From contig JAJYPP010000001.1 in the NCBI GenBank assembly GCA_021795235.1, positions 131,384-195,383 on the forward strand: a DNA stretch of 64,000 nucleotides. The letters run 5' to 3'. Shown here one piece after another: positions 7,731-64,000 of this stretch. The first letter of the stretch is position 1; each line of letters starts with the position of its first letter. The notes beneath the pieces are model-generated. The model was not told the origin of the DNA and made no database searches. It was given only the letters and a program-made list of their open reading frames with translations. The translations under genes and the position numbers were made by a program. Source of the stretch: a bacterium (GTDB taxonomy: Bacteria > Chloroflexota > Dormibacteria > Aeolococcales > Bog-877).

Positions 7731-7953
7731 GCCTCGGGGGGCGCCGCTGGAGCGGCCGCAGGGGACGCCCGCCACGACCGCGCCGTGCTCGCCAGCAGCG
7801 ACGGCCAGGACCCGGGGTAGTCCGGCGCCATGGGGGAGGGGAGCGTAAGACCAGAGCCAACGGCTCGGGCGGCCCCCTATGGAGCCAAGATCAGTGCGGG
7901 GGCTCTGCCAAGGGGCGCCCGGAGTGGGCTACCCGAGTTCACCGGGCGGCACA
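7722..7953 (+). ncRNA. Shortened, degenerate copy (E) of the ~300-nt structured repeat family
   Basis: Shares GCCAGCAGCGACGGCCAGGAC...CCGGCGCC.UGGG.GAGGGGAGCGTAAGACCAGAGCCAACGGCTCGGGCGGC...GAGTTCAC.CGGGCGGCA with copies A-D. Its 5' GGGAAC overlaps the prpE stop codon. It lacks the CUGGCCGGACAUAGCCAG hairpin. Confidence 0.5.
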
Positions 7954-8060
7954 CTGCTCGAGCGGTGCCCCCATCGGCCACAGCCGGCCTGGAGATCCCA
8001 GGGCCCGCCGACTTGCCCTGGGCCGCGTCGGTCGGGCCTGCGCCCTGGTCCGAGCTGGCG

Positions 8061-42158: not shown

Positions 42159-42342
42159 CCGGTCGCATCTCCGGTTGTTTACGGGGCTCCGCTCGATGTT
42201 GCCACAGCTCTCCGCCAGAGGATGTCTCTCGCGCCGTGGAATTTGGTCTGTGGCCCTGTGCGGATGATACGCGTGGGCACGCTGGTTCTGCCGGAACCGG
42301 GACGTGGTGGGGAACGCCGTCGCGGAACCTGGTTGGGGTTGC

Positions 42343-42645
42343 GAACAGTTGCACGTACGATGCGCTATAACGAGAGGAGATGAACTTCAAGGAGTGGTAG
42401 CCACTGCCCAAGACCTCTGTCACTGGCCGGACATAGCCAGCCAAAGCGGTGTAGTTGACGCTGCGGCCCCGTTCGCCAGCGAGAGCAGCGACGGCCAGGA
42501 CGCTGGATCATCCGGCGCCGTGGGAGGGAGCGTAAGACCAGAGCCAACGGCTCGGGCGGCACCCGATGAGGCCAAGACCCGTAAGGGAACCCCGAGCAGG
42601 GGTGCCGCAGGAGTGCGCTTCCTATAGTTCACTCGTCGGCAACGG
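42343..42645 (+). ncRNA. Copy A (archetype) of a ~300-nt structured repeat; candidate novel ncRNA or RNA-bearing mobile element
   Basis: 303 nt, intergenic. Nearly collinear with copy C and alignable to B, D and E. Has nested helices, a CCC-GUAA-GGG hairpin and a 9-bp helix 42556-64/42600-08. Overlapping ORFs are not frame-conserved between copies. Confidence 0.65.
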
Positions 42646-46112: not shown

Positions 46113-46204
46113 GGTGCCCACCTGGCTTGCGCTCCCAGCCGCCCGCCCCTTGCCCGCCCCGACTGGTGAGGCAGCCGCCGCAATCAGGGAACTCGCCAAG
46201 GTTG

Positions 46205-46492
46205 GAACAGGTGCTCGTGGGAGCTGCGGTTCGCGCTGATGAACTTGAAGGAGTGGCAGCCACCGCAGGAAATCTCCGTGACCGGCCGGACATGGCCAGC
46301 GCCAGCGGGGTGGCCGCCTCTCCGCCTGCCAGCAGCGACGGCCAGGACGCTGGATGATCCGGCGCCGTGGGAGGGAGCGTAAGACCAGAGCCAACGGCTC
46401 GGGCGGCACCCGGTGAGGCCAAGACCCGTAAGGGAACCCCGAGAAGGGGTGCCGCAGGAGTTCGCTCACTATGGTTCACTCGGCGGCAACGG
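46205..46492 (+). ncRNA. Copy B of the ~300-nt structured repeat
   Basis: 288 nt between tetR and the helicase-nuclease operon. It shares the conserved blocks, with a ~15-nt shorter central arm. Its 3' terminal motif GTTCACTCGG is repeated again at 46516-46526. Confidence 0.6.
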
Positions 46493-46720
46493 GGACGGCC
46501 CATTCCGGTCACCAGAGTTCACTCGGATGCCCGGCAGAGCCGGCCGGGCGGAGCCAGGAGGAGCTGAGGCCGCCCCGGGGGGCGGGGACTGCGTCGGCCT
46601 GGCCCCCTGCCGTACGCTCGTGCGCGGTGCGGTGCGCGGAGCGGCGGCGTCCACTTCAGCGACTGGAGGTCTGATCTGAGGGATTCGGTAGACCGTCTCT
46701 GGGTTGTCGGACCCACCCGG

Positions 46721-54797: not shown

Positions 54798-54960
54798 GGA
54801 CACGCCTCCCTTTCTACTGCGGACTTGAACGTTATCCGCTTCATGCAAGGGATTTTAGACAGATGCGTGGGGGCGTGGGGGAGGTTGATCTCGCTGCTGA
54901 CCCGCGCCCGGGCTGGCGCTCGGTCGGTCGGACCGGGGCTGAGAACGGTTTGACTAAGCC

Positions 54961-54979
54961 AAACGCCAGTTCGTATAAT
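54961..54979 (+). promoter_or_regulatory. Candidate promoter (TATAAT 54974-54979) overlapped by an SOS-box-like aAAC-N4-GTTC
   Basis: AAACGCCAGTTCGTATAAT lies 60 nt upstream of the imuA-like start. It matches the GAAC-N4-GTTC (Cheo-type LexA box) in 7 of 8 positions. Confidence 0.25.
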
Positions 54980-55037: not shown

Positions 55038-55796
55038 ATGGGACTGGATACGCCTCGGAGGTTGCCGGGTGAGCGTGACCGCCAGCTCCGACACCACGCC
55101 TTGCAGGGGGCGCTGGCAGGGATCAGGCGCCGTTACGGTCCCGGGGTGGTGCGCTTGGGTGGGGATGCTCAGAGTGGGGGGCTGAAGACTGGAGCCAGTT
55201 CCCTGGATGCGCTCTTCCCCGGCCTGGGTATCCCCCGAGGGCGGCTCAGCTGGCTCGAGGGCGGACCAGGAGAGGGTGCCTTCGACCTCGGGTTGGTGTT
55301 GCTGGCAGAGATGTCGAAGGAGCTGCCGGTGGCTCTGGTCGACTTTGGGCAGAGCGTGGATCCCGGTGATGTGGCGGATTACGGAGGTCGGCTGGAGAAC
55401 TGCTGGTGGGTGCGCCCCGCCCGGCCGGAGCAGGGCTGGGCGGCGGCGCGCGCCCTGGTGCTGGCCGGCGTTGACTTCTGCCTCTTGCTGGCGGGGAGAT
55501 GGTCCCCGGTGGACAGGGCGGTCCCCGCTGTGCTGCTGGCGGCATTGGAGGAGAGGGGCGCGGCGGCGCTCCTGGCCGGAGGGTCGGAGGTGCCGGCGGT
55601 TGTGGGAGGAAGGCTGGGGGTGCAGATCTCCTGCCGCCGGGAGGGCTGGGCCAATGTCCACGGGGATGTGGCCGGGATCCGGGTCCGGCTCGACGTGGTC
55701 CGCAGCCGGCTCGGTCCGCCGGGAGCGGCCTGCCGGCTCAAGATCGGCTTCCCTCGGCCCTATCCGAACCGGGCTGGGATTGTGGACCCGGGGTAG
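55038..55796 (+). CDS. imuA: RecA-fold ImuA-like protein (SOS mutagenesis cassette component)
   Basis: The N-terminus ALQGALAGIRRRYGPGVVRLGG mirrors the RecA N-terminus. LDALFPGLGIPRGRLSWLEG replaces the P-loop region. It sits immediately upstream of imuB. Confidence 0.6.
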   Translation: MGLDTPRRLPGERDRQLRHHALQGALAGIRRRYGPGVVRLGGDAQSGGLKTGASSLDALFPGLGIPRGRLSWLEGGPGEGAFDLGLVLLAEMSKELPVALVDFGQSVDPGDVADYGGRLENCWWVRPARPEQGWAAARALVLAGVDFCLLLAGRWSPVDRAVPAVLLAALEERGAAALLAGGSEVPAVVGGRLGVQISCRREGWANVHGDVAGIRVRLDVVRSRLGPPGAACRLKIGFPRPYPNRAGIVDPG

Positions 55797-55797
55797 G

Positions 55798-56100
55798 GAA
55801 CAGTTGCTCGTACGATGTGCTATAGTTGGTCCTGATGAGCTTCAAGGAGGGGTAGCCACTGCCCAAAACCTCCGTGACTGGCCGGACATAGCCAGCCCAA
55901 GCGGTGTAGTTGACGCCGCGGCCCCGCCCGCCAGCGAGAGCGGCGACGGCCAGGACGCTGGATCATCCGGCGCCGTGGGAGGGAGCGTAAGACCAGAGCC
56001 AACGGCTCGGGCGGCACCCGATGAGGCCAAAACCCGTAAGGGAACCCCGAGAAGGGGTGCCGCAGGAGTGCGCTTACTACAGTTCACTCGGCGGCAACGG
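55798..56100 (+). ncRNA. Copy C of the ~300-nt structured repeat, inserted between imuA-like and imuB
   Basis: 303 nt, starting 2 nt after the imuA-like TAG and ending 56 nt before the imuB TTG. It is collinear with copy A. Contains TGCTATAGT (55818-55826), an extended -10-like motif just upstream of the 5' strand of the closing helix. Confidence 0.65.
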
Positions 56101-56156
56101 CGACTGGAGGCCGGCGATGTCGACTCCGAGGAGATGCGGGCGGAGGCGGTGGGAGG

Positions 56157-57383
56157 TTGAGGGGGCTGCCCCGCCTGGGGTTTCTGGGATTTCCGCATCT
56201 GGCCCTCATCCTGGCCTGGCAGGCGCACCCCGAGCTGGTCTCCGCGGCACTGCTGGTGGGCTCCCCGGCCGCCTTTGGCCGGGAGGCCGTGCTGGCCGCC
56301 TCGGAGGCGGCTGCAGCCAGGGGTGTCCATCCTGGGCAGGACTTTCGCCAGGCGGAGCTGGCCTGTCCGGAAGCCGTCCGGTTGCGGGCCGACCAGGTCG
56401 CGCTCGCCAGATTGCGGGAGCAGCTGCTGATGGCGCTATACGACTGCAGCCCGCTGGTGGAGTTGAGCGATGACACCGGGGCATATGTGGACCTCGGCGG
56501 TCGGGATCCGCGCTGGCAGACCGAGGCTGCTCGGGCCTCGCATCTCGGCCGCGCGGTGCAGCAGCTCTTGGGGCCGGCTCCTGCGGTGGGGGTGGGGCAG
56601 TCACGCTTCGTGGCCCAGGCCGCGGCCGCTCGAGCCGGCTCGGGGAGAATCCGGCTGGTCCCTCCCGGCGCCGCGGCCGCATTCCTGGCCGACTGGCCGG
56701 TGACCCGACTGCCATTGCCACCACGGACGGTGGATCAACTGCTCGGTTTCGGTCTGCGCACCTGCGGTGACTGCTTGGCCATACCCCTGCCAGACCTGCA
56801 GCGCCAACTGGGCCCCGACGGCCTCATGCTGCACCGGCTCTGCCTCGGCCAGGACGCTGCCACCATCCATCCGCGGCGGGAGCTGCCGCCCTGCTCGGTG
56901 CGACGGGTGCTGGCGGGGGTGGTGGAGAACTCGGAGTCGCTGCGCTTCGGCGCTCCAGAACTGGCTGCTCTGCTCGCCTCCGAGCTGGCCCACCTCAATC
57001 TGGCCAGCGGCCGGCTGCGGCTGCTGTTGCTGGATGAGGATGCCGCTGAGGGCGTCGTCCGCTCGGACCAGCCGGGCGTCTGCTGCGCCGAGGTGACCAC
57101 CCCGTCGCTGGTAGCCACCGCCGAGGAACTGCTCCCACCCATCCTGGGCCTGCTCTCCCGAGCGCGCGGTAGGGCTCTGGTCGTCGAGCTCCATGCCCTT
57201 GACCTGGCTCCGCCCCCGGTTGCGCAGAGGCGCCTATGGGCGGTGGCAGAAGGCAGAGGCGAGGAGATAGGGCGGGCGGTGGCCAGGCTCCGGGAGCGGT
57301 TCGGCCCCGAGCTGGTCTGGAGGGTTGAACTCAGACCACTGCACCCAGGCGACATCCCCGAGGAGCGGCTGGTGTGGAGCTGA
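56157..57383 (+). CDS. imuB: ImuB-type Y-family DNA polymerase homolog (likely catalytically inactive)
   Basis: Y-family palm/fingers layout (FPHLAL..., CSPLVELSDDTGAYVDL, GVGQSRFVAQAAA) but without the N-terminal DxD catalytic motif. TTG follows GGTGGGAGG. Confidence 0.7.
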   Translation: MRGLPRLGFLGFPHLALILAWQAHPELVSAALLVGSPAAFGREAVLAASEAAAARGVHPGQDFRQAELACPEAVRLRADQVALARLREQLLMALYDCSPLVELSDDTGAYVDLGGRDPRWQTEAARASHLGRAVQQLLGPAPAVGVGQSRFVAQAAAARAGSGRIRLVPPGAAAAFLADWPVTRLPLPPRTVDQLLGFGLRTCGDCLAIPLPDLQRQLGPDGLMLHRLCLGQDAATIHPRRELPPCSVRRVLAGVVENSESLRFGAPELAALLASELAHLNLASGRLRLLLLDEDAAEGVVRSDQPGVCCAEVTTPSLVATAEELLPPILGLLSRARGRALVVELHALDLAPPPVAQRRLWAVAEGRGEEIGRAVARLRERFGPELVWRVELRPLHPGDIPEERLVWS

Positions 57384-57685: not shown

Positions 57686-59671
57686 ATGGCTCAGCACCAG
57701 TCGGGTTCCGGCCCCAATGGCCGTCCCGGCTCCGGCCCTCCCACCCGTCGGCCCGCCCAGTGGCGATCGATACAGTTCCTGCTGCCCCTGGGCATCTTCC
57801 TGGCCCTGAACGTCCTGTTTGCCAATGTCTTCTTTCCCCCCGCCCAGACCAAGAGCATCGCCATTCCCTACAACGTTTTCATATCCGATGTGAAGAGTGG
57901 CGACGTCGCCAGCATCACCAGCACCGGCAACACCATCCAGGGGACCTTCCGTCACCAGACCGGGGTGACCTCCAAGAGCAAGAACAAGGCGATGGCGTTC
58001 AGCACCCAACTACCCAGCTTCGCTGGCGGCCAGCTGGAGACGCTGCTGCAGCAGCACAACGTCACCCAGAATGCTGTCAACCCCAACCCTCCCGCCAACA
58101 TGTTGCTGGTGCTTCTGGAGAGCTTTGGCCCCACCCTGCTATTCGTGCTGATCTTCGTGTGGTTCATGCGCCGCAGCGCCGCCGCGGCCGGGGGCGGGCT
58201 GTTCAGCCTGGGGCGGTCACAGGCGCGTCTCTATGATCCCGAGCGCCCCGCCACCACCTTCGCCGATGTGGCCGGCATCGAGGAGGCCAAGGAGGAGCTG
58301 GAGGAGATAGTCGACTTTCTGCGCCAGCCGGCCAAGTACCAGCGCCTGGGTGGCACCGTGCCCAAGGGTGTCCTCCTGGTGGGGCTGCCGGGCACCGGCA
58401 AGACCCTGCTGGCGCGAGCGGTGGCCGGGGAGGCCGGGGTGCCTTTCTTCAGTATCTCCGCGTCTGAGTTCATAGAGATGGTAGTGGGGGTGGGGGCCTC
58501 GCGGGTGCGCGACCTCTTCTCCAAGGCCCGAGAGGCGGCTCCGGCCATCATCTTTGTTGATGAGCTCGATGCCATCGGCCGCAGCCGCAGCGCCGGACCC
58601 AGCTTCGGCGGCCACGACGAGCGCGAACAGACACTGAACCAGATCCTGACCGAGATGGACGGTTTCGACTCCCGCGAGGGCGTGATCGTCCTGGCGGCCA
58701 CCAATCGCGCCGATGTCCTGGACTCCGCCCTGCTGCGGCCGGGCCGGTTCGACCGGCGGGTGTCGGTGCTCCCCCCGGACCGGGTGGGGCGGGCCGCGAT
58801 CCTCAAGATCCACACCAGGGGGGTGCCGCTGGGGCCCGACATCGACCTCGACAACCTGGCCTCCCAGACGCCGGGGCTGGTGGGGGCCGAGCTGCGCAAC
58901 CTGGTCAACGAGGCGGCGCTCCTCGCGGCCCGCAAGGAGCGGCCGGCGGTCACCATGGACGACTTCACAGATGCCCTGGAGAAGGTCCTCCTGGGAGCCG
59001 CCCGCCGGATCGTGCTCTCCGAGGACGACCGCCAGCGCACCGCCTACCACGAGAGCGGGCACGCCCTGCTCGGGCTGCTGGTTCCCGCCGCCGACCCGGT
59101 TCGGCGGGTCTCGATCATCCCCCGAGGGCGGGCGCTGGGGGTGACCGTGCAGTCGCCGGTGGACGACCGCCAGAACTACCCCGAGACCTATCTGCGCGCG
59201 CGCATCGTCGGGGCCCTGGGCGGCCGGGCGGCGGAGAAACTGATCTACGACGTGGTCACCACCGGCGCTGAGAGCGACCTCCAGCAGGTGACTCAGATCG
59301 CCAGGCAGATGGTGATGCGCTGGGGCATGAGCCCCAAGGTGGGACCACTCAACCTCGCCGACGATGGTGATCAGTCCGCGATGATGATCTCCCAGCGCCC
59401 CTACAGCGACACCACCGCGGAGGTGATCGACTCGGAGGTGCGCCGGATAGTGGAGGAGTGCTTCGATGAGGCCCTGGGGCTGCTCAAGGACAACCGCGAG
59501 CGGCTGGACGCTCTGACCACGGCCCTGCTGCGTGAGGAGTCCTTGAATGAGGAGCAGATCCTCCAGGTGACCGGGCTGCCGGCCAAGCCAAAGGTCGTGT
59601 CCCGACCATCGACGGCTCGCCGGGCCCAGGCTGCGGCTGAGGAGAAGCCCGAGGTGCCGGCCGCGACCTGA
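57686..59671 (+). CDS. ftsH: ATP-dependent zinc metalloprotease FtsH
   Basis: Two N-terminal TM segments, AAA+ Walker [20 protein letters not shown] region, and the zinc motif HESGHAL. Confidence 0.95.
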
Positions 59672-59889
59672 GCCCCACCGTCTGGGGCGCTGCTCCTGGT
59701 GCTCGGCCCGGGGACAGGTCGGTAGGACGCCGCGCGATTCCTCGGGCGGATGCCGGTCACGAGACCGTCGGGCCTCTCGATCGATTCCCTGGGTAGGCGC
59801 CCCGCCCAGGACCAGGGCCGCCAAGGAACCTTCCCGGTGGCGCTGGACCAGGGCTCGCGGCGCATCGGCCCGGAACTGTTGGAAGGGGG

Positions 59890-60191
59890 GAGCGGTTGCC
59901 CCAAGAAGAGCTATGGGTGGCGCGGGTCAACTTGAAAGCGTGGTGGCCACTGCCCGAAATCTCGGTGGCTGGCCGGACACAGCCGGCACAAGCGGTGCGG
60001 CCGACGGCGCGCCCGCGCCCGCCCGCGGCGATGGCGGGCCGCTGGATCATCCGGCCCCATGGGAGGGGCGCAAGGCCAGAGCCGATGGTTCGGACAGAAC
60101 TGGACGAGGCCGGAACCCATGGGGGAAGCCCGAGAAGGCGTGCCCTATGACTGCGCCGAACGGAGTTCCCTTACAGTGACGCGGCTGCTGG
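59890..60191 (+). ncRNA. Copy D (most divergent full-length copy) of the ~300-nt structured repeat
   Basis: 302 nt between the convergent ftsH and surface-protein genes. It retains GCCACUGCCC, CUGGCCGGACA.AGCC.GC, GCUGGAUCAUCCGGC, UGGGAGGG.GCG.AAG.CCAGAGCC and CCCGAGAAGG.GUGCC. Substitutions keep several helices paired. Confidence 0.6.
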
Positions 60192-60329
60192 CACTGATTG
60201 GTCGCACCACCACCGTCAAGCGGATTGGGAGGGCGACCAGGGAGGGTAGCCGGGGGCCCTCGCCGTGCTTGGGCGAGGACCGCGTCAGGGGGAGCACCAT
60301 GTGGTGCTCCCCCTGAACTGGTCGCGAGG

Positions 60330-62570
60330 TCAGGCTTGGGTCTTGGCCCGACGTCGGGTCAGAAGCGCGAGCCCGAGGAGGCTGAGCCCTGCGAGAACCA
60401 GGATCAGGGTCAGCAGGAGATCGAGGTGAGCTCCTGTGCCGGGAGTTGATGCCCCCAGCACCGCACCGGCGGGCGCGGGAGTCTTCTTAGTGGTGCTGGC
60501 ACCCAGTACGGCCTGCTTGGGCGTGGGTGCCGTGGTGGTGACGGTGGCCGTGCAGGAGGCTGTTGTGGTGCATCCGCCGTCACCGGAGGTCGCCGTGACA
60601 GCGTTGGTGAGGCTGAAGAGGCCGTTCACGGCGGTGCTCAGGTTGCCCGGAGCCAGCATGGTGGCGCTGTAGGTCACCGTCGCTGTCTGCCCGACAGCCA
60701 GGCTGGCGTACTCCCAGGTGTAGGAACCCGGACCCGTCGATCCGAAGTTGATCGCCGCGGCGCCGCTGGGCGACGAGGAGAAGCTGAAGGAGTCCCGGGT
60801 GCCGTGGGTGCCATCGTTGACCTGGACGGCCGCGGTTCCGCTCATGACGTCGTTCATGACCACGTCCGTGGCCGCTGCGGTACCCGAGTTGGTCACGGTG
60901 ATGGTGTAGTTGAGAGTCTGACCGAGCGTGGTCGAGGTGGTGTCGACCGCCTTGGTGACAGTCAGGATCGGGGCGCCGCCAGAGGTCGGTGGCCCGGGGG
61001 TGATGACTGTCGACGAGCTGCTGGCGGAGGCCGTCTGATTGTGGGCTGCGACATCAACCGTCACTGTGTCGGTGAGGCTGCTGCCGGCCGCCGGCCCGTA
61101 GCCGGTGACGCTGAAGTAGCAGGTGACGGTGTCGCCAGGCTGTCCGGCCGGGGCCAGGGTGGTGGGAGCACTGACAAGAGAGCCACACTCGGAGTAGGAG
61201 TGGCCCGAGTAGCTGTCGGTGATCAAGGTGATGGTCTCCGAGACCCGGCTGGTGTTGGTGATCACCGCCCGGAAGGGAACGGTCTCCTTAGCGGTGCCGA
61301 ACTCGATCTTGCCGTAGCCGGCCAGGTTGGCGTCATTGGTCTTGTCGACGCTGACGCCGGGGGACCCAGGGGTAGGCGGGGTTACCCGTGGGGTGGTCAC
61401 CGTGGAGGAGCTGCTGCCGGAGGCGGTCTTGGTGCCGGCGGTGACACCAACTGTCACGGTGTCGGTCAGGCTGGTCCCTGCCGCTGGAGCGTAGCCGGTG
61501 ATCGAGAACGAGCAGGTGACGGTGTCGCCCGCCTGTCCGGCCGGGGCCAGGGTGGTTCCGATCAGCCCGCTGCACTCAGACGCCGGGGTGCCGTTGGCGA
61601 TACCGGGGTAGTTGTCGGTTATCGATTTGATCGTCTCCGAGACATCGCTGGTGTTGGTGATCACAGCCTGGAAGGGGACCGTCTCGCCGACGCCGGTGGC
61701 GGTCTCATTCTTGCCGTAGCCTTGGCCGCTGGCGTTGTTGGTCTTGTCGACGCTGACGCCAGGGGTCCCCGGAGGCGGAGGCGGAGTCGGCGCCGGGCAG
61801 TTCACCCAGAAGGTCTTGTGCTTCTGGGGGTCCTGGGAGAACTGGAGCTTGAAGTGGTAGCCCTGCCCGTTGATCGGCGCGTCGCCGTTGGCCTGGGCGT
61901 CGGCGATCAGGATTCCCACGTTGATGACACTCATGATCTGGTCGCCGCTCCCCGTGTAGCTCCAGAGCTGAGTGCCTGACGCGGGATAGGCCTGGTCCGA
62001 GAACCCGCTGCCGCTGGGCGACCAGCCATCGATGGTGTAGGTGCCGGCGGAGTCGGCCATGAAGTTGCCCCAGAGGTTGATGTTGGAGCACGCCAGGTGG
62101 GGGTCATGCTCGTGGCCGGGCCCGGCGGGTTGGCCCACGTTGTCGAGCCACACATCCCCGTGGTTGTTGTCGCCCGCGGAGGTCGAGCTGGAGCCGCTAT
62201 TGGTCCCGGGGGACGAGCTTCCGTTGGTGGTGGGAGGTGGCGGCCCGTAGTTGCCAGCGGAGTTGTTGGAGCCGGAAGGGCTCTGGCTGGAGGATGTCGA
62301 TGAGTTGGAGCCAGAGGAGTTTGAGGACGAATTGGACTGCTGGCTGGAGCCACTCGCTCCACTGGAGCTGGATGTAGAGGAGGACCCGGAGTGCCCCTGT
62401 CCATGGCTTCCCGAGTTGCCATGCTCAGCCGACGCGCCCGGGGAGCTGCTGTTGGGGCCGTGGCCACCACCCGAGTCCGCCAGCACCGAGGCGGGGGCTG
62501 CCAGAAGCAGCGCAGCCACTCCCAGGCTGGTGAGAATGAATGACCATCGACTCGAACCCTTGCGTATCAC
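60330..62570 (-). CDS. Large secreted cell-surface protein: Ser-rich linker, tandem ~125-aa Ig-like repeats, DUF11-type repeat, C-terminal sortase-like anchor
   Basis: GTG 62570 is preceded by AAGGAGAGG. Signal peptide MIRKGSSRWSFILTSLGVAALLLAAPASVLA. Two repeats begin PGVSVDKTN. ILTVTKAVD...YTITVTNSG matches the DUF11 type. The C-terminus is TPGTG plus a hydrophobic helix plus RRRAKTQA. Confidence 0.75.
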   Translation of the reverse strand: MIRKGSSRWSFILTSLGVAALLLAAPASVLADSGGGHGPNSSSPGASAEHGNSGSHGQGHSGSSSTSSSSGASGSSQQSNSSSNSSGSNSSTSSSQSPSGSNNSAGNYGPPPPTTNGSSSPGTNSGSSSTSAGDNNHGDVWLDNVGQPAGPGHEHDPHLACSNINLWGNFMADSAGTYTIDGWSPSGSGFSDQAYPASGTQLWSYTGSGDQIMSVINVGILIADAQANGDAPINGQGYHFKLQFSQDPQKHKTFWVNCPAPTPPPPPGTPGVSVDKTNNASGQGYGKNETATGVGETVPFQAVITNTSDVSETIKSITDNYPGIANGTPASECSGLIGTTLAPAGQAGDTVTCSFSITGYAPAAGTSLTDTVTVGVTAGTKTASGSSSSTVTTPRVTPPTPGSPGVSVDKTNDANLAGYGKIEFGTAKETVPFRAVITNTSRVSETITLITDSYSGHSYSECGSLVSAPTTLAPAGQPGDTVTCYFSVTGYGPAAGSSLTDTVTVDVAAHNQTASASSSSTVITPGPPTSGGAPILTVTKAVDTTSTTLGQTLNYTITVTNSGTAAATDVVMNDVMSGTAAVQVNDGTHGTRDSFSFSSSPSGAAAINFGSTGPGSYTWEYASLAVGQTATVTYSATMLAPGNLSTAVNGLFSLTNAVTATSGDGGCTTTASCTATVTTTAPTPKQAVLGASTTKKTPAPAGAVLGASTPGTGAHLDLLLTLILVLAGLSLLGLALLTRRRAKTQA

Positions 62571-63039
62571 TTGCCTCTCCTTGCGAAATGACTCTGACTG
62601 TCTTGCGAATCCGAAACTGTGCCGCTCCACCCCCAGCTGGCGTCTGGTGGTGGTTGCGATCTCTTGCCGGGGTCTCGACCCCGGCAAGAACAGAGGTGGT
62701 CCGGTCGACCTCCCTCCCTCGCGACTCGCGGAGGTCGCTGGCCTGGGGGCCGGGTGAGCCGGTGGCGTGGAATGCGGAGGGATTTCATGTTCGCGTTCCC
62801 GAGGACAGCCCCAGCGCGGGCCCCCCTCGACCTGGGCCCGGCACCGGGTATCCCGGATCCCGGGGCTGACGTCCGCGGGAAATGTGCGGACCCAAGTCCC
62901 CAACCATGGCTGCGGAACCACAGTCCCATTCCTTCCGACCGGGCAAGTCTCTCTCCTAAGAACGCCCCCTCCAGGGGGGAAGACCCTGGCACTGGCTACT
63001 CCCTTCTGCCAGAACCCTTGCGCGCTAAGCAACCGAGCT

Positions 63040-64000
63040 GCTGGTTACATTAACAACTTGAGATGCGGTGTGGCGGTCCAGTCACGCGGACTGAAGGCTT
63101 TGTTACATTGACTGACCCTTCTCTAATCGTGGATGACCGGGCCCAATAGCGCAGCGATCCGGCCCCTGGCTTGCCGTGCAGGAGTGGCGAGGTCGATACC
63201 GGGCCCGCCGCCCGGGGAGTTCGGTCGGGGTTCTTGCCAACACTTGTGGAAATTCCTTCCAGGAAGGCGAGTCAGTTGGGCAAGCGGCAGAGCCCTCCAA
63301 GGTGGGTGGTTGAGTTCGTTGCAGACGGCCGTCGACAAAGCGTTCGCCGGCGAGCAATAGGGTGAGCTGGTTACGTCCGTTGATGGGGTGCCACCTGGTG
63401 CCTAGCCGCAGGACCAGCTTGAAGACCAGGTAGAGCGCGTTCTCGCGCACGTGCATGCGCTTGGTGGCATCGGTCCGGAGCCGCACCCCAGCGAAGATCG
63501 ACCGGATGGGATTGGAGGTGCGGAGGTGGAGCCAGTGCTCCTCGGGGAAGTCGTAGAAGGTGACGAACTCGTCCCAGTCCCGCTCCAAGCAGTCGGCCGC
63601 ATCGCCCTGAGCCTGGGCGCGCAGCTGGGTGCAGTACTCAGCCCGCCGCCTACTGCACTCAGCCCTGGAGGGAGCCTGGTAGATCTCCTTGATCGCACCT
63701 CGCGCCGTGGCCTGTAGCCGCTTGGGGAGCTTGTCGATGACATTGAGGACCCGGTGGTTCCAACACCGTTGCTGGCGGGTCGTCGGGAACACCTCGTTGA
63801 GGGCCGCCCAGAACCCCAGTCCGCCATCGCCGATGGCCAGCAGAGGCGGCTCCGTGAGTCCCCGGGACTTCAGATCCCGAAGCAGCTCCCCCCAGGAGGC
63901 GGCGCTCTCCCGGTAGCCCTGCTGCATCGCCAGCAGCTCCTTGTGGCCGTCAGCTCTCACCCCCAGGACCACCAGCACGGCGGTCCTCTCCTTCTCCAAC
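63040..64000 (-). mobile_element. Partial IS256-family insertion sequence (inner boundary not determined)
   Basis: The transposase ORF runs off the window. The left IS end is expected within ~100 nt of the stop at 63103, but I could not identify the terminal inverted repeat without the other end. Confidence 0.5.
63103..63999 (-). CDS. IS256-family (Mutator-type) transposase; the N-terminus lies beyond the window edge
   Basis: Family-typical segments CWNHRVLNVIDKLPKR, FYDFPEEHW.HLRTSNPIRSIFA, RMHVRENALYLVFKL. Confidence 0.85.
   Translation of the reverse strand: MEKERTAVLVVLGVRADGHKELLAMQQGYRESAASWGELLRDLKSRGLTEPPLLAIGDGGLGFWAALNEVFPTTRQQRCWNHRVLNVIDKLPKRLQATARGAIKEIYQAPSRAECSRRRAEYCTQLRAQAQGDAADCLERDWDEFVTFYDFPEEHWLHLRTSNPIRSIFAGVRLRTDATKRMHVRENALYLVFKLVLRLGTRWHPINGRNQLTLLLAGERFVDGRLQRTQPPTLEGSAACPTDSPSWKEFPQVLARTPTELPGRRARYRPRHSCTASQGPDRCAIGPGHPRLEKGQSM

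What the first reader, a model, noticed from the sequence alone, without database searches (positions are those of the whole stretch)
55798..56100. Repeat copy C sits exactly between imuA-like and imuB and carries its own promoter-like motif
The element starts 2 nt after the imuA-like stop (TAG 55794-96) and ends 56 nt before the imuB start, splitting a cassette that is normally contiguous and SOS-regulated. Inside the conserved 5' leader, copy C has TGCTATAGT (55818-55826), an extended -10 match. It is placed so that transcription would begin just before the 5' strand of the closing helix (55836-41). Copy A has cGCTATAAC at the same position. The element may therefore be expressed autonomously, may act as an internal promoter, terminator or processing site for imuB, or may simply tolerate insertion there.
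Basis: partly seen in the sequence, partly recalled or inferred. Interest (0 to 1): 0.65.

Follow-up and report, generated by a model that had tools for sequence, protein, structure and literature searches.

The report
Gene-less mini IS607 with guide RNA
The 300-base repeat between imuA-like and imuB is a recently inserted, gene-less miniature of an IS607 transposon that keeps only the transposon ends, the transposase promoter and the guide-RNA (omega RNA) gene. It is a selfish mobile element of a known kind, not a dedicated regulator of the DNA-damage operon.

Summary
The repeat is real: four full copies and one fragment lie in the window, all on the + strand. Copy C is a 307-bp insertion (55794-56100). 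A close relative (ImuB 95% identical, L046) has the empty site, where imuA-like overlaps imuB by 4 nt. One GG in that empty site appears at both ends of copy C, and there is no target duplication. This is the IS607 serine-recombinase signature.

The element is a deletion derivative of an IS607-family insertion sequence. Its parts, in order, are:
- the left end
- a -10-like box
- the tnpA start codon plus six codons
- the last ~70 codons of tnpB, fused directly to the above; this stretch is the omega-RNA scaffold (22 of 52 pairs covary across 11 homologues)
- a right end finishing in ...GCAACGG

The left flank reads GGGG and the right end reads CGG, matching the published TAM and self-avoidance logic for IS607 TnpB.

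It is poorly conserved among copies and its function is untested. The imuA-like stop codon lies inside the element, not 2 nt before it. Older copies (B, D, E) are decaying neutrally.

This is a new member of a known kind and of moderate interest.

The parts
54950..54979 (+). Native promoter of the imuA-like/imuB operon: TTGACT-18-TATAAT. A Cheo-type LexA-box-like site, CAAACGCCAGTTCG, lies at 54960-54973.
   Evidence: The promoter scan scores 11 of 12. The motif is conserved in L028 and L029, and L029 has a perfect CGAACAAAAGTTCG. Pattern search.
55038..55796 (+). imuA-like (RecA-fold) CDS, truncated by the insertion. Its last conserved residue is G252, and its stop codon TAG 55794-96 is supplied by the element.
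   Evidence: Pfam RecA hit, E 9e-8. Alignment with the L028 and L029 orthologues. Empty site in L046.
55790..55793 (+). Left flank GGGG. This is the TAM-like motif, and its last GG (55792-93) is the crossover dinucleotide.
   Evidence: One GG in L046 (9943-44) aligns to both 55792-93 and 56099-100. Left flanks of the other copies and relatives read GGGG, AGGG or AAGG. Published IS607 target and TAM are GGG/TGGG.
55794..55834 (+). Left end of the mini IS607. It holds GTTGC-type repeats (the first is degenerate, GGTAGG; the second is 55803-07) and the -10-like TGCTATAGT at 55818-26.
   Evidence: Aligns to the left ends of full-length Dormibacteria elements L035 and L032 and of the autonomous IS607 L044.
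55835..55855 (+). Remnant of the tnpA (serine recombinase) start: ATG plus 5 codons, then TAG (MSFKEG*). Copy A reads MNFKEW*.
   Evidence: L044 TnpA begins MNLREW and has a Pfam Resolvase domain. The L035 remnant reads MNFKERGW. Mini-ORFs of the copies.
55853..56058 (+). Remnant of the last ~70 codons of tnpB, from the RuvC-III NAAxNLRDWPD motif onward. This is the 5' and central part of the omega-RNA scaffold. The stop-equivalent position is 56056-58, which reads GGA here.
   Evidence: Six-frame search hit TnpB P0034. Amino-acid identity to the TnpB tail is 73-78%. tblastn. DNA identity is 78-81% to L030, L042 and L040.
55872..56100 (+). Conserved structured RNA (omega/reRNA scaffold). It includes a long-range helix joining CCG (about 55875-77) to the terminal CGG (56098-100).
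   Evidence: RNAalifold predicts 52 pairs, 22 with compensatory changes. 95.1% of cells are paired against 86.5% in shuffles, and slid controls give 2-6 covarying pairs.
56059..56100 (+). Right end, finishing ...CACTCGGCGGCAACGG. The terminal CGG is the self-avoidance variant of the GGG TAM, and GG 56099-100 is the crossover dinucleotide.
   Evidence: All full-length relatives end at GCAACGG and then diverge. Published IS607 scaffolds end in CGG/UCGG.
56101..56120 (+). Predicted guide segment of copy C's omega RNA: CGACTGGAGGCCGGCGATGT. It is also the first codons of the displaced imuA-like tail.
   Evidence: The L046 empty site reads GGGG|CGACTGGAGGTTGGCG, matching 14 of 16 positions. The published guide is about 16-17 nt immediately 3' of the right end. 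That this stretch acts as a guide is inferred.
56101..56160 (+). Displaced native C-terminal codons of imuA-like (RLEAGDVDSEEMRAEAVGG*). The original TGA overlaps the imuB TTG.
   Evidence: Translation. Collinear with L046 and L028.
56157..57383 (+). imuB (Y-family polymerase-like), intact.
   Evidence: Pfam IMS. Homologues are 81-95% identical at full length.
42339..42645 (+). Copy A, 307 bp and 91% identical to C. Its omega-RNA pairs are intact. It lies antisense between a thioesterase gene and an MFS transporter gene.
46202..46492 (+). Copy B, between the TetR gene and the AddB-like gene. About 5 omega-RNA pairs are broken. An orthologous decayed copy is present in L046.
59889..60191 (+). 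Copy D, downstream of ftsH. It is 74% identical to C. The tnpA ATG is lost, about 8 pairs are broken and the right end is altered. An orthologous copy is present in L046.
7775..7956 (+). Copy E, a 5'-truncated fragment holding only the 3' half of the omega region. It has no left end and a degenerate right end.

Best explanation
Copy C is a 307-bp non-autonomous deletion derivative of an IS607-family insertion sequence (serine-recombinase TnpA plus the RNA-guided nuclease TnpB). A single internal deletion removed tnpA after codon 6 and tnpB up to its RuvC-III motif.

What remains is:
- the left end with its TnpA-site-like GTTGC repeats
- the tnpA promoter region and start codon
- the complete omega-RNA scaffold, which is encoded by the 3' end of tnpB
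- the right end

Shown here: the element inserted, recently and only in this lineage, at a GG inside GGGG. The insertion point is exactly after the last conserved codon of imuA-like. It supplied a new stop codon and pushed imuB 360 nt away from its former translationally coupled partner.

Inferred:
- The family spread by TnpA_S supplied in trans, through excision as a dsDNA circle and GG-to-GG recombination.
- Copy C can be transcribed from the left-end -10-like box (start at about 55833, essentially at the old tnpA ATG), by read-through from the LexA-type imuA promoter, or both.
- Either route would give an omega RNA whose 3' guide is the flank CGACTGGAGGCCGGCG.
- With a TnpB made elsewhere, that RNA would cut the vacated site (GGGG + the same sequence) and so favour retention of the element. 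This is the published homing logic for IS605/IS607.
- For the host the insertion is a tolerated lesion, not a purpose-built regulator. No terminator is present, so imuB is probably still co-transcribed but has lost translational coupling.
For: Homology:
- A six-frame search of the element hit only a TnpB (P0034; Pfam PF01385 + PF07282).
- The + frame of copies A-C is 73-78% identical to the TnpB C-terminal tail.
- Related TnpBs are named 'IS607 family element RNA-guided endonuclease TnpB', several from Candidatus Dormibacteria.
- DNA from 55859-56100 matches the last ~205 nt of tnpB plus the 35-42 nt right end in L030, L042 and L040 at 78-81%.

Left end:
- 55792-55853 aligns to the left ends of full-length Dormibacteria elements L035 and L032.
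- L035 still carries a frameshifted IS607-type tnpA.
- L044 is an intact Resolvase + TnpB IS607 whose tnpA begins MNLREW, preceded by CATAGT.

Boundaries and mechanism:
- The close relative L046 has the empty site GGGG|CGACTGG.
- Its single GG is present at both ends of copy C, and there is no target duplication.
- More distant relatives L028 and L029 are also empty.
- A strict GG core, a GGG/TGGG target and TAM, and a scaffold ending in CGG are the published properties of IS607 TnpA_S and TnpB.

RNA:
- 22 of 52 pairs covary across 11 homologues, far above shuffled and slid controls.
- Copies C and A keep every pair.

Precedent:
- A synthetic mini-IS607 (left and right ends only) is excised by TnpA_S in trans and guides TnpB in trans.
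- Natural gene-less IS605-type PATEs often encode omega RNAs.
Against: - No tnpA or full tnpB lies in the 64-kb window or the 66-kb contig.
- No TnpB with a tail more than 78% identical to the mini copies was found. The trans partners are therefore unseen.
- The -10-like box is strong only in copy C (and in L044). It has no -35 partner and is only marginally unexpected by chance.
- Among the mini copies there are no compensatory changes. B, D and E are decaying, and paired columns (11 of 102 variable) differ no more slowly than unpaired ones (17 of 119). There is thus no sign of selection on the RNA after insertion.
- No expression data exist.
- Five copies on one strand, and the GGAAC motif upstream of A, B and D, are unexplained.
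Confidence: 0.9

Rival explanations
1. Dead relic. Copy C is an inert scar of an IS607 mini-element. It is no longer mobile, is not transcribed on its own and yields no functional guide RNA. Its only effect is the disruption it causes: a truncated imuA-like tail and lost imuA-imuB coupling.
For: - No tnpA or tnpB in the window or contig, and no near-identical TnpB tail in the databases.
- Copies B, D and E decay with broken pairs and no compensatory changes.
- The orthologous B and D copies in L046 are even more degraded.
- The promoter motif is not conserved.
Against: - Copy C is absent from a genome at about 92% DNA identity, so it moved recently.
- C and A retain every omega-RNA pair, an intact right end, and the highest model scores of 240 and 231 bits.
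- Only 66 kb of the genome has been seen, so trans factors cannot be excluded.
Confidence: 0.4
2. The element is, or has become, a cis-regulatory module of the mutasome operon. It would act as an internal, LexA-independent promoter for imuB, or as a processing or attenuation site that uncouples imuB from imuA-like.
For: - TGCTATAGT is the only extended -10 match in 64 kb, and it points towards imuB.
- No terminator lies between it and imuB.
- The native operon promoter carries a LexA-box-like site that the internal start would bypass.
- imuB is intact.
Against: - Close relatives run the operon without the element.
- The same element sits in unrelated and even antisense contexts.
- The motif is the inherited tnpA promoter position, not something evolved at this site.
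- Any effect on imuB would be a by-product. There is no -35 box.
Confidence: 0.15
3. A free-standing structured non-coding RNA gene family, or a riboswitch-like leader of DNA-repair genes, unrelated to transposons.
For: - The structure is conserved and covarying.
- Two copies sit upstream of repair genes: the AddB-like gene and imuB.
Against: - Rfam gives no match.
- The sequence is collinear with tnpB 3' ends and IS607 right ends, and its 5' part with IS607 left ends and the tnpA start.
- Presence/absence at a GG with no duplication.
- Other copies lie after acs and ftsH and antisense to a transporter operon.
Confidence: 0.02
4. A small protein-coding gene. The long open + frame through the element, or the mini-ORF MSFKEG, would be the functional product.
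For: The + frame is open across all of copy C and runs into the displaced imuA tail.
Against: - Copy B has an in-frame stop and copy D a frameshift.
- The mini-ORF differs in length or is lost among the copies.
- No gene caller annotated it in the full-length copies of the source contig; the only call is a cut ORF at the start of L022.
- The open frame is the inherited tnpB tail in 68% G+C DNA.
Confidence: 0.02

Closest known systems
IS607-family insertion sequences (H. pylori IS607, Xylella ISXfa1, Clostridium botulinum CboIStron/IS607): serine-recombinase TnpA_S plus TnpB with a 3' omega/reRNA
   Same: - GG crossover dinucleotide at both junctions, and no target-site duplication.
- GGG-type motif on the left flank, and a right end/scaffold ending in CGG.
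- Omega RNA encoded across the tnpB 3' end and right end, with the guide taken from the right flank.
- Long-range pairing next to the guide.
- tnpA start codon (MN[FL]KEW) about 40 nt inside the left end.

   Different: - Both genes are deleted: only 6 tnpA codons and about 70 tnpB codons remain, so the element cannot move or cut by itself.
- The conserved structured region (about 230 nt) is longer than the 144-nt ISXfa1 scaffold.
- The host is the uncultured phylum Dormibacterota.
PATE-like gene-less derivatives of IS200/IS605 that encode omega RNAs (Geobacillus stearothermophilus; Meers et al., PMC10055086)
   Same: - Protein-less miniature element made of the transposon ends plus an omega RNA.
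- Multiple copies per genome.
- Presumed to depend on TnpA and TnpB supplied in trans.
   Different: - Those are Y1-transposase, single-strand 'peel-and-paste' elements with palindromic ends and a TTGAT-type TAM.
- This one derives from a serine-recombinase IS607 with GG junctions, and it keeps the tnpA promoter and start fused to the omega RNA.
Synthetic mini-IS of the CboIStron (left + right end only; Zedaveinyte et al., bioRxiv 10.1101/2023.11.20.567912)
   Same: The architecture is the same: left end, right end with omega RNA, no genes. That construct is excised by TnpA_S in trans and serves as a guide for TnpB in trans.
   Different: - That construct is man-made, carries 581 + 221 bp of ends and contains a group I intron.
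- Here a natural 307-bp version has only about 60 bp of left end. Whether that is enough for TnpA_S is untested.
Bacterial MITEs in general
   Same: - Short, non-autonomous and multi-copy.
- Intergenic or at gene ends.
- Break metagenome assemblies.
   Different: - No long terminal inverted repeats (only GTTGC/GCAAC) and no target-site duplication.
- Carries a functional-looking guide-RNA gene.

Membership tests
IS607 family (derivative) | Encodes, or descends from an element encoding, a serine-recombinase TnpA | tested here: met
   The copy keeps the tnpA ATG plus 5-6 codons (MSFKEG / MNFKEW). The homologous left end in L035 is followed by a frameshifted IS607-type tnpA. L044 has an intact Pfam Resolvase gene starting MNLREW. 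The mini element itself has no functional tnpA.
IS607 family (derivative) | Encodes, or descends from an element encoding, TnpB (OrfB_IS605 plus zinc ribbon) | tested here: met
   55853-56058 is the remnant of the last ~70 tnpB codons. It is 73-78% identical at amino-acid level to P0034-type TnpBs (PF01385 + PF07282), which NCBI names IS607-family TnpB.
IS607 family (derivative) | Matching GG core dinucleotide at both junctions, and insertion at a GG without target-site duplication | tested here: met
   The single GG in L046 (9943-44) aligns to both 55792-93 and 56099-100. The insert is 307 bp with nothing else duplicated. Published requirement.
IS607 family (derivative) | GGG-type target/TAM on the left flank, and CGG at the right-end terminus | tested here: met
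   Left flanks read GGGG (A, C, D, L035), AGGG (L032) and AAGG (B). Right ends read ...AACGG in A, B, C and all seven full-length relatives. Published. Recognition of the TAM by a protein was not tested.
IS607 family (derivative) | Mobilised by TnpA_S through a circular dsDNA intermediate | not testable with these tools
   Only indirect support: a presence/absence polymorphism against L046. No TnpA_S gene was seen in the 66-kb contig.
TnpB omega RNA (reRNA) | Conserved structured RNA overlapping the tnpB 3' end and ending at the transposon right boundary | tested here: met
   52 pairs, 22 with compensatory change. 95.1% paired against 86.5% in shuffles, with slid controls at 2-6. The boundary is at GCAACGG.
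TnpB omega RNA (reRNA) | Transcribed, bound by TnpB, and carrying a 3' guide of about 16-20 nt from the flank that directs cleavage next to the TAM | not testable with these tools
   The empty site in L046 equals GGGG plus a 14-of-16 match to the predicted guide. There are no expression or cleavage data.
Rfam-curated RNA families | Match to a curated covariance model | tested here: not met
   No hits at gathering score in the whole window. Only a chance miRNA hit (E 0.29) appeared in 55700-56200.
PATE (IS200/IS605 palindrome-associated element) | Ends with subterminal imperfect palindromes recognised by a Y1 HUH transposase, and insertion 3' of a tetra- or pentanucleotide | tested here: not met
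   The ends and the ancestral transposase are of serine-recombinase IS607 type with GG junctions. The element works like a PATE but is not a member of that family.
   An extended -10, TGCTATAGT, is present in C. There is no -35 box. One match against 0.15 expected, with 14% of shuffles reaching one. L044 has CATAGT at the same position, but A has TATAAC, B has TGCGGT, D has TATGGG and L035/L032 have TGTGGT.

The most novel reading that the evidence does not exclude
The mini copies could be working, self-promoted guide-RNA genes. The deletion fused the leaderless tnpA promoter directly onto a complete omega RNA. Each intact copy (A, C) would then be a one-guide cassette serviced by a single TnpB elsewhere in the genome.

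This would be a dispersed, transposon-borne guide set, a natural halfway form between one-gene-one-guide transposons and guide arrays. At copy C it would have three consequences:
- a TnpB-bound, processed RNA embedded in the imuA-imuB transcript
- a LexA-independent start upstream of imuB
- RNA-guided cutting of any revertant empty site, locking the insertion into the mutasome operon
Probability: 0.15. Interest if true: 0.65.

Novelty: new member of a known kind. Interest (0 to 1): 0.35.

Why it matters
The finding explains an unannotated, Rfam-negative, structured 300-nt repeat family in an uncultured phylum (Candidatus Dormibacterota). It is the guide-RNA module of an IS607 transposon that has lost both of its genes.

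It offers a natural counterpart to the synthetic mini-IS607 used in the laboratory, and to the IS605-type PATEs. The filled/empty site pair is clean and shows the GG-crossover signature base by base.

For annotation, it warns that the imuA-like gene here is truncated by a mobile element and that the imuA-imuB spacer is not a regulatory region.

If the copies prove to be expressed and used by a TnpB in trans, they would be a compact natural promoter + omega-RNA cassette of interest for TnpB biology. As it stands, the element is an ordinary selfish insertion.

Tried and rejected
- **Rfam:** no family matched, either over the whole window at gathering score or over the locus at E up to 10.
- **DNA pattern scans:** the conserved core AAGRCCAGAGCCNANGGNTCGG was searched in genome contigs, metagenome contigs and viral contigs. 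Only chance 22-24-nt matches came back.
- **blastn against plasmids and phages:** no match.
- **tRNA/tmRNA:** none found.
- **IS200/IS605 PATE idea,** prompted by all copies sharing one strand: rejected once the ancestral transposase proved to be a serine recombinase.
- **Protein-coding reading:** rejected because of a stop in B and a frameshift in D.
- **Trans targets for the predicted guides of A, B and C:** none in the window within 3 mismatches and with a G-rich TAM.
- **Search for the cognate full-length TnpB:** the best tails are only 74-78% identical. Cluster look-ups gave no sample accessions.
- **The search for related loci in viral contigs:** only one useful relative, L036.
- **A second 'AGTTCACTCGG' after copy B** looked like a duplicated right end. 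It aligns to native sequence in L028 and is coincidental.
- **A LexA-box reading of the left end** (GAACAGTTGCTCG) was considered. It is not conserved in full-length relatives and was dropped.
Full report
**1. Observation**

The window has 68% G+C. blastn with the locus against the window finds a repeat family, entirely on the + strand:

| Copy | Match coordinates | Identity to copy C |
|---|---|---|
| A | 42335-42645 | 91% |
| B | 46204-46496 | 83% |
| C | the locus itself | - |
| D | 59888-60156 | 74% |
| E | 7794-7951 (3' half only) | 77% |

Profile HMM searches find no further copies. They show that A-D carry the 5' leader and E does not. Scores for the 3' part are C 240, A 231, B 193, D 139 and E 56 bits.

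All copies lie between or at the ends of genes:
- E lies after an acetyl-CoA synthetase gene.
- A lies antisense between a thioesterase gene and an MFS transporter gene.
- B lies between a TetR gene and an AddB-like helicase-nuclease gene.
- C lies between the imuA-like gene (55038-55796, weak RecA Pfam hit) and imuB (56157-57383, IMS).
- D lies after ftsH.

Rfam has nothing here.

**2. It is an insertion**

imuB homologues place the contig in Candidatus Dormibacterota. In relatives with 81% and 70% identical ImuB (L028, L029), imuA-like ends with TGA overlapping the imuB start by 4 nt, and no element is present.

The decisive case is L046. This Dormibacteria MAG has ImuB identical at 389 of 408 positions and about 92% DNA identity over 10 kb. 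It reads ...GTGGACCTGGGG|CGACTGGAGGTTGGCGATG...GGTTGA. The window reads ...GTGGACCCGGGG[TAGGGAAC...GGCAACGG]CGACTGGAGGCCGGCGATG...GGTTGA.

The two BLAST segments meet so that the single GG of L046 (9943-44) aligns with both 55792-93 and 56099-100. Copy C is therefore a 307-bp insertion with no target duplication beyond the shared GG.

It entered directly after the last conserved residue of imuA-like, G252. The TAG stop is element sequence: the consensus left end is GGTTGC, and copy C has GGTAGG. The native 19 C-terminal codons (RLEAGDVDSEEMRAEAVGG*) are displaced to 56101-56160.

L046 also carries more decayed copies at the B and D sites. B and D are therefore old, shared insertions, and C is recent and lineage-specific.

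**3. What it is**

Pattern scans of the large DNA collections found nothing. I then concatenated the six reading frames of copy C and searched them as one protein. The only hit was P0034, a 478-aa TnpB with PF01385 and PF07282.

The + frame of copies A-C is 73-78% identical to the C-terminal tail of that TnpB, from the RuvC-III motif NAAxNLRDWPD onward. At DNA level, 55859-56100 matches the last ~205 nt of tnpB plus the downstream 35-42 nt in L030, L042 and L040 at 78-81%.

A profile search returned more than 2,000 relatives. The named ones are called 'IS607 family element RNA-guided endonuclease TnpB', including several from Candidatus Dormibacteria.

The first ~60 nt of the element align to the sequence upstream of those genes in Dormibacteria loci L035 and L032:
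- In L035 this left end is followed by a frameshifted IS607-type serine-recombinase gene (MNFKERGW..., WFRDGKLPV...LILVD...LTSLCARLYGRRAAKNRA) and then tnpB.
- L044 is an intact IS607 with a Pfam Resolvase gene beginning MNLREW, followed by tnpB.

Copy C reads ATG AGC TTC AAG GAG GGG TAG at 55835-55855, and copy A reads MNFKEW*. These are the tnpA start and six codons, joined at about 55852/53 to the tnpB tail.

The element is therefore left end + tnpA promoter/start :: omega-RNA region + right end. It is a gene-less deletion derivative of an IS607.

**4. The RNA**

Eleven homologous 3' regions were aligned: C, A, B, D and seven full-length elements. All the full-length ones end at ...GCAACGG and then diverge.

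RNAalifold predicts 52 pairs, 22 of them with compensatory changes. Counting on that structure gives:
- 95.1% of cells paired against 86.5% in shuffles (0 of 500 shuffles reach it)
- 22 covarying pairs against 10.5 in shuffles
- 2-6 covarying pairs when partners are slid by 1-3 columns

One long-range helix joins CCG near the 5' end of the conserved region to the terminal CGG. This resembles the pseudoknot next to the guide reported for the ISXfa1 reRNA.

The structure begins right at the deletion junction, so the mini element retains the whole omega-RNA scaffold and little else.

**5. Fit to published IS607 rules**

Zedaveinyte et al. show the following:
- TnpA_S needs a GG core dinucleotide, prefers TGGG and makes no duplication.
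- CboTnpB uses a TGGG TAM.
- The scaffold ends ...UCGG, so the element's own right end escapes cleavage.
- A synthetic gene-less mini-IS is excised by TnpA_S and guides TnpB, both supplied in trans.

The ISXfa1 study reports a GGG TAM, no cutting at CGG, and a guide of about 17 nt beyond the right end.

In this family the left flanks read GGGG (A, C, D, L035), AGGG (L032) or AAGG (B), and right ends read ...AACGG. The L046 empty site is GGGG followed by a 14-of-16 match to copy C's predicted guide.

Meers et al. describe natural gene-less PATE-like IS605 elements that 'often encode omega RNAs' to be used by TnpB in trans. The kind is therefore known. I found no report of a natural IS607-derived version in three literature searches. 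That is not proof that none exists.

**6. The promoter-like motif**

TGCTATAGT is the only TGNTATART in 64 kb. With 0.15 expected, 14 of 100 shuffles still produce one. No -35 box lies at 16-18 nt.

The -10 hexamer ends 8 nt before the tnpA ATG, so a start there would give an essentially leaderless tnpA message. The autonomous IS607 L044 has CATAGT at the same position. The other copies read TATAAC (A), TGCGGT (B), TATGGG (D) and TGTGGT (L035, L032).

This organism does use canonical promoters. The imuA-like operon has TTGACT-18-TATAAT (11 of 12) with a Cheo-type LexA-box-like site in the spacer, conserved in relatives.

My reading is that the motif is the inherited tnpA promoter position and happens to be at its best in copy C. 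Its activity is plausible but unproven.

No intrinsic terminator lies between imuA-like and imuB. Read-through from the SOS-type promoter is therefore expected, while the translational coupling seen in relatives is lost.

**7. Selection**

Among the mini copies, 19 of 52 pairs vary. Seven are kept by one-sided G-U changes, twelve are broken, and none is compensated.
- A and C keep every pair.
- B breaks about five pairs and D about eight.
- E is a fragment.

Among A, B and C, paired columns vary about as much as unpaired ones (11 of 102 against 17 of 119). The covariation therefore comes from the full-length lineages, and inserted mini copies decay neutrally. This argues for a selfish element that the host tolerates, not a host regulatory RNA.

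**8. Gaps**

- No tnpA or full tnpB is present in the window or its 66-kb contig.
- The closest TnpB tails are 74-78% identical.
- The left end and first 70 nt of the omega region are closest to L035 (97% over 68 nt), while the rest is collinear with L042, L040 and L030. The master copy is thus unsampled or mosaic.
- All five copies being on one strand has two-sided p = 0.06.
- A GGAAC motif 7-10 nt upstream of copies A, B and D remains unexplained.

**9. Verdict**

However, the object is a mini IS607 carrying an omega-RNA gene, a new member of a known kind and of moderate interest.

Noticed in passing
window 54950-54979 (LexA-like box 54960-54973): The imuA-like/imuB operon has a near-consensus promoter, TTGACT-18-TATAAT, with a Cheo-type LexA-box-like site (CAAACGCCAGTTCG) in the spacer. 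The site is conserved in relatives, and L029 has a perfect CGAACAAAAGTTCG. This suggests Gram-positive-type SOS control in Dormibacterota.
   Followed up: partly
window 57686-64000; L021 15418-20700; L046 13516-20868: dnaE2 is not adjacent to imuB in this lineage. ftsH and a DUF11/CLIPPER surface-protein gene lie between them. In the window's genome only, there is also an IS256-family transposase (Transposase_mut, from window 63103 onward, - strand).
   Followed up: partly
window about 42324, 46188 and 59872 (upstream of copies A, B, D): GGAAC[CT] lies 8, 7 and 10 nt upstream of the left GG junction of copies A, B and D. It is absent from copy C and from the full-length relatives. It may be an extra target preference or a longer left end in a sub-family.
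   Followed up: no
L022/L027 position 1 = window 55888; L025 position 1 = window about 46432: Contigs from other assemblies of the same organism begin inside copies C and B. These are repeat-induced assembly breaks and imply more copies elsewhere in the genome.
   Followed up: partly
L035 5795-7912; L032 7570-11486: Two full-length Dormibacteria relatives of the element were seen. One has a frameshifted tnpA and interrupts an ornithine cyclodeaminase gene. The other has an IS110-family element nested between its left end and tnpB.
   Followed up: partly
L046 367-662 and 13704-14035: Orthologous, more degraded copies of B and D exist in a genome at about 92% DNA identity. The copies differ far more (72-77% identity) than the flanking genes do, as expected for neutrally decaying insertions.
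   Followed up: partly
L030 2179-12156: The closest database TnpB (P0034) sits next to WhiB, HTH_17 and NlpC/P60 genes and many small ORFs. This looks like an actinobacterial prophage or phage region, which hints at phage-borne spread of this IS607 lineage.
   Followed up: no
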